Of a stretch of DNA of 853 nucleotides, positions 1-679 are shown piece by piece. Origin of the DNA: a phage. Positions within the stretch are counted from its first letter, which is position 1. The number at the start of each line of letters is the position of its first letter. The position numbers and the translations under genes were made by a program. The stretch lies in the sequence record AB218927.1. One strand, 5' to 3'. The notes below the pieces were generated by a model. The model saw nothing but the letters and a program-made list of their open reading frames with translations, searched no databases and was not told the origin of the DNA.

Positions 1-27
1 TTCGAGCTCGGTACCCGGGGGCGCGCC
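1..27. other. Cloning-vector polylinker, 5' flank: SacI GAGCTC 4-9, KpnI GGTACC 10-15, SmaI/XmaI CCCGGG 14-19, AscI GGCGCGCC 20-27
   Basis: Directly read restriction-site string TTCGAGCTCGGTACCCGGGGGCGCGCC, identical to the EcoRI-proximal end of a pUC19/pNEB193-type multiple cloning site as I recall it. The phage-derived sequence begins immediately after the AscI site. Confidence 0.85.
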
Positions 28-95: not shown

Positions 96-488
96 ATGGC
101 AACTTTACGCAGTTTCGTACTCGTCGATAATGGCGGTACGGGGAATGTTACTGTCGTTCCTGTTAGCAATGCCAACGGCGTCGCTGAGTGGCTTTCTAAT
201 AACTCGCGCAGTCAAGCTTATCGCGTGACTGCCAGTTATCGTGCGTCAGGCGCGGACAAGCGCAAATACACCATCAAACTCGAAGTACCGAAAATCGTTA
301 CTCAAGTTGTTAATGGTGTCGAGCTGCCTGTTTCCGCATGGAAGGCTTACGCCTCTATTGACCTGACCATCCCTATCTTTGCTGCAACCGATGATGTGAC
401 CGTTATTTCCAAGTCACTCGCCGGCCTGTTCAAAGTTGGGAACCCTATCGCTGACGCTATCTCTTCTCAGAGTGGCTTCTACGCGTAA
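96..488 (+). CDS. cp: Coat (capsid) protein of a GA-type group II ssRNA coliphage, complete, 130 aa
   Basis: Translation MATLRSFVLVDNGGTGNVTVVPVSNANGVAEWLSNNSRSQAYRV...TIPIFAATDD...GNPIADAISSQSGFYA matches the phage GA coat protein as I recall it, nearly residue for residue. It also shares the conserved levivirus coat motifs seen in MS2 (FVLVDNGGTG, ANGVAEW, NSRSQAY, ELTIPIF, GNPI). ATG 96, stop TAA 486-488. Confidence 0.95.
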   Translation: MATLRSFVLVDNGGTGNVTVVPVSNANGVAEWLSNNSRSQAYRVTASYRASGADKRKYTIKLEVPKIVTQVVNGVELPVSAWKAYASIDLTIPIFAATDDVTVISKSLAGLFKVGNPIADAISSQSGFYA

Positions 489-679
489 TGGGTCTGAAAG
501 CAAAGCATAAGGAAAACCTATGTTCCGATTCACAGAGATCGAAAAGACTCTATGTATGGATCGCACTCGCGATTGTGCTGTCCGATTTCACGTCTATCTT
601 CAGTCACTGGATTTGGGGTCTTCTGATCCTCATTCTCCGGACTTTGATGGACTTGCCTACCTTCGTGATGAATGTTTAA
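488..679 (+). CDS. L: Lysis protein L (single-gene lysis protein), complete, 63 aa; start ATG 488-490 overlaps coat stop TAA 486-488
   Basis: The ORF sits in the position of levivirus L, spanning the coat-replicase junction in a third frame. It has a basic N-terminal region (KAKHK...RSKR) followed by a hydrophobic transmembrane-like segment. RSKRLYVWIALAIVLSDFTSIFS aligns with MS2 L RSSTLYVLIFLAIFLSKFTNQLL, including the conserved Leu-Ser dipeptide (codons at 578-583). Confidence 0.85.
   Translation: MGLKAKHKENLCSDSQRSKRLYVWIALAIVLSDFTSIFSHWIWGLLILILRTLMDLPTFVMNV
504..524 (+). promoter_or_regulatory. Translational operator RNA hairpin (coat-protein binding site) containing the replicase start codon
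   Basis: AGCAUAAGGAAAACCUAUGUU folds as follows: upper stem G511-C518 and G512-C517, 4-nt loop AAAA (513-516), bulged A510, lower stem A509-U519, U508-A520, A507-U521, C506-G522 (plus G505-U523 and A504-U524). This has the same architecture as the MS2 operator ACAUGAGGAUUACCCAUGU, with the replicase AUG (520-522) in the 3' arm of the lower stem and the SD-like AGGA in the 5' arm and loop. Confidence 0.8.

What the first reader, a model, noticed from the sequence alone, without database searches (positions are those of the whole stretch)
504..524. Replicase translational operator hairpin with AAAA loop and bulged A
The hairpin AGCAUA-A-GG-AAAA-CC-UAUGUU has the canonical MS2-operator geometry: a 2-bp upper stem, a single bulged purine and a 4-nt loop, with the replicase AUG sequestered in the lower stem. 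The loop is AAAA rather than MS2's AUUA. This is the RNA element that coat-protein dimers bind to repress replicase translation and nucleate packaging, and loop and bulge identity is what differs between the GA and MS2 operators. It is the most functionally loaded 21 nt in the window.
Basis: partly seen in the sequence, partly recalled or inferred. Interest (0 to 1): 0.45.

Follow-up and report, generated by a model that had tools for sequence, protein, structure and literature searches.

The report
Known GA-phage replicase operator hairpin
The 21 bases are the long-known coat-protein-binding hairpin that covers the replicase start codon of a group II (GA-type) RNA coliphage, here as a cDNA copy in a cloning plasmid, so the finding is correct but ordinary.

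Summary
Window 504-524 folds into a 6-bp lower stem, one unpaired A, a 2-bp GG/CC upper stem and an AAAA loop. The replicase AUG (520-522) and an AGGA Shine-Dalgarno (510-513) both lie inside the hairpin. It is the minimum-energy structure alone and in context, with pair probabilities of 0.93-0.98 across the whole insert.

The geometry occurs once in the window. Only 0.35% of shuffles produce it anywhere.

The insert (28-810) is 96.8-98.1% identical to phage GA/BZ13. GenBank X03869 annotates exactly these 21 bases as a potential coat-protein binding stem-loop. Relatives (MS2, fr, AVE017, an IMG/VR lineage, C-1, PRR1) keep the same AUG-anchored hairpin, and 4 of 8 pairs show compensatory changes.

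- The unpaired base is A in both GA and MS2. What differs is loop positions -6/-5 and the -11/-1 pair.
- The unpaired A is degenerate: A509 and A510 are about equally likely.
- An AAAA loop is not unique to GA.

The window is a plasmid clone with polylinker flanks. It carries one private change, G505 (A-U to G-U).

Verdict: already known, low interest.

The parts
504..524 (+). Replicase translational operator hairpin. Lower stem 504-509 with 519-524; unpaired A at 510 (or 509); upper stem 511-512 with 517-518; loop 513-516 AAAA. In MS2 numbering this is -16 to +5, with the loop at -7 to -4.
   Evidence: folding; GenBank feature of X03869 at the same bases; covariation; chance.
520..522 (+). 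Replicase (beta subunit) start codon AUG, paired with 506-508 in the lower stem.
   Evidence: CDS starts in X03869, FJ483839 and FJ483837 map to window 520. Pair probabilities 0.97-0.98.
510..513 (+). AGGA Shine-Dalgarno-like motif, 6 nt upstream of the replicase AUG. It spans the unpaired A, the upper stem and the first loop base, so a bound coat dimer or a closed hairpin hides both SD and AUG.
   Evidence: Read directly from the sequence. The same 17-mer, CATAAGGAAAACCTATG, occurs by chance in front of many unrelated ORF starts in metagenomes, which fits an ordinary SD-spacer-AUG.
96..488 (+). Coat protein gene (130 codons including Met). It encodes the trans-acting repressor that binds the hairpin.
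   Evidence: ORF; 98-99% identical to BZ13/GA coat; PDB 1gav and 1una, GA coat, E = 3e-79; MS2 RNA-pocket residues V29, T45, S47, R49, T59, K61 conserved; MS2 N87 is S in group II.
488..679 (+). Lysis gene. It overlaps the coat stop (UAAUG at 486-490) and contains the whole operator (codons 6-13). The hairpin bases are therefore also constrained by the lysis frame and, from 520, by the replicase frame.
   Evidence: 63-aa ORF; annotated lysis CDS at the equivalent positions.
496..501 (+). GAAAGC just 5' of the operator. It is predicted to pair with 191-196 inside the coat gene. This is the positional counterpart of the MS2 long-range ('Min Jou') interaction that makes replicase translation depend on coat-gene translation.
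   Evidence: Pair probability 0.99 in the whole-insert partition function. MS2 has UGAAUGG (1427-1433) complementary to CCAUUCA (1738-1744) at the equivalent places.
191..196 (+). GCUUUC in coat codons 32-34, the predicted long-range partner of 496-501.

Best explanation
Window 504-524 is the cDNA copy of the replicase translational operator of a group II F-specific RNA coliphage (GA/BZ13 type, Emesvirus japonicum).

In the phage plus-strand RNA it folds into a small hairpin that holds both the Shine-Dalgarno AGGA and the replicase AUG. A dimer of the coat protein, encoded just upstream at 96-488, recognises three features: the unpaired A in the stem, the A at loop position -4 and the purine at -7. 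Binding locks the hairpin closed, so late in infection ribosomes can no longer start on the replicase gene. By analogy with MS2, the same complex is the highest-affinity site from which capsid assembly around the genome begins.

Shown here: the hairpin, its position on the AUG, its conservation and covariation, its identity with the annotated GA element, and the cognate coat gene with the MS2 RNA-pocket residues.

Inferred from published work on GA and MS2: binding, repression and packaging.

In this window the element sits in a plasmid polylinker as DNA. It is inert unless the + strand is transcribed.
For: Identity:
- The insert 28-810 is 98.1% identical to BZ13 DL20 and 96.8% to GA.
- X03869 annotates exactly these bases as a potential coat-protein binding stem-loop.

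Structure:
- It is the minimum-energy fold alone and in every context tried.
- Pair probabilities are 0.93-0.98 in the whole insert.
- The geometry is unique in the window, and 0.35% of shuffles have one anywhere.

Conservation:
- Bases 506-532 are invariant in all group II sequences found.

Covariation, in nine AUG-anchored sequences from GA, KU1, MS2, fr, AVE017, IMG/VR L013, C-1 and PRR1:
- 91.7% of cells are paired, against 20-49% when partners are slid.
- 4 of 8 pairs show changes on both sides, for example A-U/G-C at -11/-1 and G-C/U-A at -8/-3.
- The unpaired A at -10 and the A at -4 are kept in all nine; A at -7 is kept throughout the seven Emesvirus sequences (G in C-1).

Other support:
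- The Rfam MS2-operator model aligns in register.
- The coat protein keeps the residues that form the MS2 adenine pockets.
- PMC3561173 states that this hairpin binds coat protein, acts as translational operator, and that the -4 A and the unpaired purine are critical in MS2, GA and PRR1.
- Katz et al. (bioRxiv 10.1101/168625) used the native GA hairpin as a GA coat-protein binding site in vivo.
Against: - No binding or repression was or could be measured here.
- The Rfam MS2 family score is 12.8 bits against a gathering score of 40. The reference GA operator also fails (18.1 bits), as do KU1 (23.0) and AVE017 (15.3), so this reflects a model built on group I.
- The hairpin is weak (-4.3 kcal/mol).
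- Conservation within group II cannot be separated from the overlapping lysis and replicase reading frames.
- No GA coat-RNA complex was found in the PDB by sequence search. Only 1gav and 1una were found, both with names that mention no RNA.
- The packaging-nucleation role is documented for MS2, not directly for GA.
- G505 is not in any published GA-type sequence, so this exact 21-mer has not itself been tested.
Confidence: 0.95

Rival explanations
1. The hairpin is only a passive structural throttle of replicase initiation. SD and AUG are hidden in a weak stem that opens when ribosomes translating the coat gene break the long-range pairing. Coat protein has no specific role at this site in this strain.
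For: - SD (510-513) and AUG (520-522) are both inside the hairpin.
- A high-probability long-range pairing, 496-501 with 191-196, lies next to it. It resembles the MS2 coupling interaction.
Against: A passive throttle would not need an invariant unpaired A at -10, invariant A at -7 and -4, a fixed 2-bp upper stem and a fixed 4-nt loop across lineages whose stems have changed by compensatory substitutions. Published work reports specific GA coat binding with exactly those requirements (citing Gott et al. 1991). The two mechanisms are not exclusive: in MS2 both operate.
Confidence: 0.03
2. The conservation of 504-524 is due only to the overlapping lysis and replicase reading frames, and the hairpin is a by-product of coding sequence.
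For: The element lies wholly inside the lysis ORF (488-679) and partly inside the replicase ORF (from 520). The only change in the window, A505G, is synonymous in the lysis frame.
Against: In MS2, fr, AVE017, L013, C-1 and PRR1 the sequences differ and the lysis genes are placed differently or not annotated. The same AUG-anchored hairpin is kept through changes on both sides of pairs. The chance of the geometry is 0.35% per insert, before requiring it to sit on the AUG.
Confidence: 0.01
3. It is an engineered or artefactual sequence. Because the window is a plasmid clone, the hairpin (or its G505) could be a designed variant or an RT-PCR error rather than a natural operator.
For: - The flanks 1-27 and 811-853 are polylinker: SacI, KpnI, SmaI, AscI ... 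PacI, XbaI, SalI, PmeI, PstI, SphI.
- G505 was found in none of the other group II sequences: 5 phage-database genomes, 4 IMG/VR contigs (one of which is the GA genome itself) and 2 metagenome contigs.
Against: Of the 15 differences from the nearest genome, 13 lie in coding sequence. Twelve are synonymous and one is a conservative coat D-to-N change. That is the signature of a natural isolate under purifying selection, not of design or random error. Apart from 505 the hairpin is identical to GA. G505 keeps the pair as G-U and the lysis codon as Lys.
Confidence: 0.01

Closest known systems
Phage GA replicase operator (coat-protein binding hairpin; X03869 positions 1733-1753; Gott, Wilhelm and Uhlenbeck, Nucleic Acids Res 1991)
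   Same: Same genomic position, same length and same fold. 20 of 21 bases are identical, including the AAAA loop, the GG/CC upper stem, the AA at -11/-10 and the AUG in the 3' arm.
   Different: G instead of A at 505 (-15), which turns the A-U pair with U523 (+4) into G-U. The predicted stability is unchanged: -4.3 against -4.2 kcal/mol.
MS2/R17 replicase translational operator ('TR' hairpin; Rfam RF02359)
   Same: Same register relative to the AUG: unpaired A at -10, 2-bp GG/CC upper stem, 4-nt loop with A at -7 and -4, and SD and AUG inside the hairpin. The cognate coat proteins are homologous, 62% identical.
   Different: - The loop is AAAA, not AUUA.
- The -11/-1 pair is A-U, not G-C, which makes the unpaired A positionally ambiguous.
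- The 5' flank differs, so the Rfam model scores 12.8 bits against 61.3 for MS2.
- The coat has Ser where MS2 has Asn87. From memory of Lim, Spingola and Peabody 1994, this residue sets the -5 pyrimidine preference; that was not checked here.
Operator hairpins of other Fiersviridae (fr, AVE017, PRR1, C-1, M, Hgal1)
   Same: All place a short hairpin with an unpaired purine on the replicase AUG (PMC3561173). AVE017 has the same AAAA loop.
   Different: Loop size and sequence differ in PRR1 (5 nt), M and Hgal1. The stems differ by compensatory changes.

Membership tests
GA-type (group II levivirus) replicase operator | Lies on the replicase start codon of a group II levivirus genome, downstream of the coat gene | tested here: met
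   The insert is 96.8-98.1% identical to GA/BZ13. The replicase CDS start maps to 520, inside the 3' arm.
GA-type (group II levivirus) replicase operator | Base-paired stem interrupted by one unpaired purine on the 5' side, two pairs below the loop | tested here: met
   Minimum-energy and ensemble structures. The unpaired A is at 510 or 509 with about equal probability.
GA-type (group II levivirus) replicase operator | Four-nucleotide loop with A at -4 and a purine at -7 (requirements recalled from the abstract of Gott et al. 1991; the -4 A and the unpaired purine are confirmed in PMC3561173) | tested here: met
   Loop 513-516 is AAAA: A516 is -4 and A513 is -7. Literature statement.
GA-type (group II levivirus) replicase operator | Sequence identity with the annotated GA element | tested here: met
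   20 of 21 bases identical. The X03869 feature 1733-1753 equals window 504-524.
GA-type (group II levivirus) replicase operator | Specific binding by the cognate coat-protein dimer, and coat-dependent repression of replicase translation | not testable with these tools
   Needs a binding or reporter assay. Published for the A505 form only (cited).
Rfam RF02359 (Bacteriophage MS2 operator hairpin) | Covariance-model score at or above the gathering score of 40 bits | tested here: not met
   12.8 bits, E = 3.9, matching model positions 16-36 only. Control: MS2 scores 61.3 and fr 53.6 and both pass; GA 18.1, KU1 23.0 and AVE017 15.3 all fail. The model covers group I only, so the window works like an RF02359 element without being a member as curated.
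Rfam RF02359 (Bacteriophage MS2 operator hairpin) | Same secondary structure in the same register to the AUG | tested here: met
   The cmscan alignment places all 7 pairs, the unpaired A and the 4-nt loop in register. AUG-anchored comparison.

The most novel reading that the evidence does not exclude
The private A505G change (-15, A-U to G-U at the base of the stem) is a natural polymorphism that measurably alters operator stability, coat-protein affinity or the timing of replicase shut-off in this isolate. That would make it a natural operator variant not seen in any other sequenced group II phage.
Probability: 0.05. Interest if true: 0.15.

Novelty: already known. Interest (0 to 1): 0.08.

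Why it matters
This adds nothing new to biology. The coat-protein/operator hairpin of RNA coliphages is one of the oldest and best-studied RNA-protein switches, and the GA version was annotated in 1986 and characterised biochemically in 1991.

There are three practical points:
- The window is a plasmid-borne cDNA fragment, not a native genome.
- Rfam's MS2-operator family does not recover group II operators. All of them fall below threshold, so automated annotation will miss them.
- This clone carries a silent, pair-preserving G at -15 that anyone using it as a 'GA operator' reagent should know about.

Tried and rejected
- Gott et al. 1991 (PMC329206) and Lim and Peabody 2002 (PMC140551) are not held in the library. 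The GA binding rules therefore rest on a secondary citation and on my memory of the abstract.
- A full-text search for the operator sequence itself found no paper. The search 'GA operator' returned only genetic-algorithm papers. The Katz et al. supplement with the GA-wt site sequence is not held.
- The plasmid collection holds no match to the window, so the vector could not be confirmed from a database. The flanks match the pNEB193 polylinker as I recall it, which is a lead, not a test.
- The metagenome scan for the 17-mer core gave 117 hits. Only 2 (L022, L136) are phage relatives. The rest are chance SD-AUG contexts in cellular DNA.
- The minus strand folds into a mirror hairpin (-3.6 kcal/mol), as any complement of a hairpin does. 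It has no unpaired A and no A-rich loop, and the geometry scan found nothing on that strand. It was rejected as a separate feature.
- The snoR31 Rfam hit at 749-824 (17.9 bits, E = 6) is chance and runs into the polylinker.

Full report
**What the window is**

The 853 bases are a cloned cDNA fragment, not a piece of native genome. Positions 1-27 and 811-853 consist of back-to-back restriction sites: SacI, KpnI, SmaI and AscI on one side, and PacI, XbaI, SalI, PmeI, PstI and SphI on the other. They match the pNEB193 polylinker as I recall it; this is from memory and was not confirmed in a database, since the plasmid collection holds no match.

Similarity to phage genomes begins at 28 and ends at 810. 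It is 98.1% to Escherichia phage BZ13 strain DL20 (FJ483839), 96.8% to phage GA (X03869 / NC_001426) and about 90% to KU1 and T72. All of these are Emesvirus japonicum, the classical group II F-specific RNA coliphages.

By transfer of their annotation and by ORF listing, the insert holds:
- the last codons of the maturation gene;
- the coat gene (96-488);
- the lysis gene (488-679, overlapping the coat stop as UAAUG);
- the first 97 codons of the replicase gene, which starts at 520.

The window differs from DL20 at 15 positions. Two are non-coding. Of the 13 in coding sequence, 12 are synonymous and one is a coat Asp-to-Asn change. This is the pattern of a distinct natural isolate rather than a designed or error-ridden sequence.

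**The observation**

- Alone, the 21-mer folds as .(((((.((....))))))). at -4.3 kcal/mol, with z = -2.58 and 6 of 200 shuffles folding as well.
- The hairpin stays the minimum-energy structure in 41-nt and 161-nt contexts and in the whole 783-nt insert.
- In the whole insert its pairs have probabilities of 0.93-0.98, apart from the terminal A504-U524 pair at 0.59.
- I scanned both strands for the precise geometry: a lower stem of at least 6 bp, an unpaired A on the 5' side, two pairs, and a four-base A..A loop. It occurs once, here.
- Only 0.35% of 2000 dinucleotide-preserving shuffles of the insert contain one anywhere, before requiring it to sit on a start codon.
- The replicase AUG (520-522) pairs with 506-508. 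The AGGA at 510-513, a Shine-Dalgarno motif 6 nt from the AUG, spans the unpaired A, the upper stem and the first loop base.

There is one qualification. Because 509 and 510 are both A, U519 can pair with either one (p = 0.50 and 0.48). The unpaired A is therefore at -10 or -11 with about equal likelihood. This degeneracy is a property of the GA operator itself.

**What it is**

The GenBank record of GA (X03869) carries a feature 'pot. stem loop structure; pot. binding site coat protein' at 1733-1753. Mapped through the alignment, this is window 504-524 to the base.

An open-access paper on phage M states three things about this roughly 20-nt hairpin around the replicase start (PMC3561173):
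- it binds coat protein specifically;
- it acts as translational operator;
- the loop A four bases upstream of the AUG and an unpaired stem purine are critical in MS2, GA (citing Gott, Wilhelm and Uhlenbeck 1991) and PRR1.

Katz et al. used the native GA hairpin as the in vivo binding site of GA coat protein and saw cross-binding with MS2 coat protein (bioRxiv 10.1101/168625). I could not read Gott et al. directly. From memory, its abstract gives the requirements as a paired stem with an unpaired purine and a four-base loop with A at -4 and a purine at -7. It also reports no discrimination between the two positions of the unpaired purine and no strong pyrimidine preference at -5. The window meets all of these.

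**Comparative evidence**

Within group II, bases 506-532 are invariant in every sequence I could find: five genomes in the phage collection, four IMG/VR contigs (one of which is the GA genome itself) and two metagenome contigs. That conservation cannot be separated from the overlapping lysis and replicase frames, so I looked further out.

Anchoring on the annotated replicase AUG gives hairpins in the same register in five lineages:

| Phage | Hairpin |
|---|---|
| MS2 | ACAUG-A-GG-AUUA-CC-CAUGU |
| fr | loop AAUA |
| AVE017 (Emesvirus piscicola) | ACGUG-A-GG-AAAA-CC-CAUGU |
| IMG/VR lineage, coat 57% identical (L013-L015) | CAUG-A-GU-AUAA-AC-CAUG |
| C-1 | same register |

PRR1 keeps the same stem but has a 5-nt loop.

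Pairs were then counted on a nine-sequence alignment:
- 91.7% of cells are standard pairs, against 20-49% when partners are slid by 1-3 columns.
- Four of the eight pairs show changes on both sides: A-U/G-C at -11/-1, G-C/U-A at -8/-3, A-U/C-G at -15/+4 and A-U/U-A at -16/+5.
- The three invariant pairs are those that involve the AUG itself.
- The unpaired A at -10 and the A at -4 are kept in all nine; A at -7 is kept throughout the seven Emesvirus sequences (G in C-1). Positions -6 and -5 vary.

The structure and its recognition bases are therefore under selection, independently of the local coding sequence.

**The binder**

The coat protein encoded in the window is 98-99% identical to GA/BZ13 coat and 62% to MS2 coat. 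It matches the solved GA capsid and dimer structures 1gav and 1una.

In the alignment the MS2 residues that I recall as forming the two adenine pockets and RNA contacts (V29, T45, S47, R49, T59, K61) are kept. MS2 Asn87 is Ser in all group II proteins. From memory of Lim, Spingola and Peabody 1994, this residue governs the -5 preference; I did not check that here. No GA coat-RNA complex appears among the PDB hits, whereas many MS2-operator complexes do.

1. 'Loop and bulge identity is what differs between GA and MS2' is half right. The loop differs at -6 and -5, but the unpaired base is A in both. The other difference is the -11/-1 pair, which creates the positional ambiguity of the unpaired A.
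2. AAAA is not a GA hallmark. AVE017 has it too.
3. The window is not identical to the published GA operator. It has G at 505 (-15) where all other group II sequences have A. The change is synonymous in the lysis frame (AAA to AAG, Lys). It keeps the pair as G-U and leaves the predicted stability unchanged, -4.3 against -4.2 kcal/mol.
4. Nucleation of packaging is documented for MS2. For GA it is an inference; a computational comparison of MS2 and GA packaging signals is cited in PMC4368512.

**Database membership**

Rfam's 'MS2 operator hairpin' (RF02359) aligns to 503-523 in perfect structural register but scores 12.8 bits against a gathering score of 40.

| Sequence | RF02359 score (bits) | Result |
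|---|---|---|
| MS2 | 61.3 | pass |
| fr | 53.6 | pass |
| KU1 | 23.0 | fail |
| GA | 18.1 | fail |
| AVE017 | 15.3 | fail |
| window | 12.8 | fail |

The 36-nt model includes 15 nt of group I-specific 5' flank. The window therefore works like an RF02359 element without being a member as curated, and the same is true of the biochemically characterised GA operator.

**Rivals**

- A purely passive SD/AUG-hiding hairpin does not explain the invariant unpaired A, the invariant A at -7 and -4, or the fixed 2-bp/4-nt architecture.
- Conservation through overlapping genes alone is contradicted by covariation across lineages.
- An engineered or artefactual origin applies at most to G505.
- The minus-strand mirror hairpin is the trivial complement.

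**Verdict**

The finding is real and correctly identified, and it is textbook knowledge. Its novelty class is 'already known' and its interest is low.

Noticed in passing
window 1-27 and 811-853: The flanks are a run of restriction sites (SacI, KpnI, SmaI, AscI; PacI, XbaI, SalI, PmeI, PstI, SphI) that match the pNEB193/pUC19-type polylinker as I recall it. The window is therefore a plasmid clone of phage cDNA inserted between AscI and PacI. In pUC19-type vectors the lac promoter reads from the SphI/PstI side, so the phage + strand would be antisense to it (from memory, not tested).
   Followed up: partly
window 505: G where every other group II sequence found has A (5 phage-database genomes, 4 IMG/VR contigs of which one is the GA genome itself, 2 metagenome contigs). 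It turns the -15/+4 pair from A-U into G-U and is synonymous in the lysis frame. It also lowers the Rfam MS2-model score from 18.1 bits (GA) to 12.8.
   Followed up: yes
window 496-501 with 191-196: GAAAGC just 5' of the operator pairs with GCUUUC in coat codons 32-34, with probability 0.99 in the whole-insert ensemble. MS2 has a different complementary pair (UGAAUGG / CCAUUCA) at the equivalent places. This looks like the group II counterpart of the MS2 'Min Jou' long-range interaction that couples replicase translation to coat translation. In KU1 and T72 an upstream U-to-A change extends it to 7 bp. No obvious counterpart was seen in AVE017.
   Followed up: partly
window 453-479, and 486-490: A stem-loop just before the coat stop corresponds to the X03869 feature 'pot. 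stem loop structure; pot. function in lysis gene control' (window 454-478) and is present in the minimum-energy fold. The coat stop and the lysis start overlap as UAAUG, which suggests lysis translation by termination-reinitiation.
   Followed up: partly
window 270-272 (coat codon 59): The window, DL20 and KU1 have Thr at the position aligned with MS2 Thr59, an adenine-pocket residue as I recall. The GA reference X03869 has Ala there. GA also has Gly where the others have Val at coat codon 79. The RNA-binding surface therefore varies within group II.
   Followed up: no
L023-L138 (metagenome hits to CATAAGGAAAACCTATG): 115 of the 117 exact matches to the 17-mer operator core in metagenomes are unrelated cellular DNA, often directly in front of an ORF start. 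The core is indistinguishable from an ordinary Shine-Dalgarno-spacer-ATG, so short-pattern searches for this operator are unspecific.
   Followed up: yes
L013-L015 (IMG/VR contigs, coat 57% identical), operator around L013 809-826: An uncultured Emesvirus-like lineage has the operator CAUG-A-GU-AUAA-AC-CAUG, with a U-A instead of a G-C closing pair under the loop and an AUAA loop. This is a natural upper-stem variant of the MS2/GA-type operator.
   Followed up: partly
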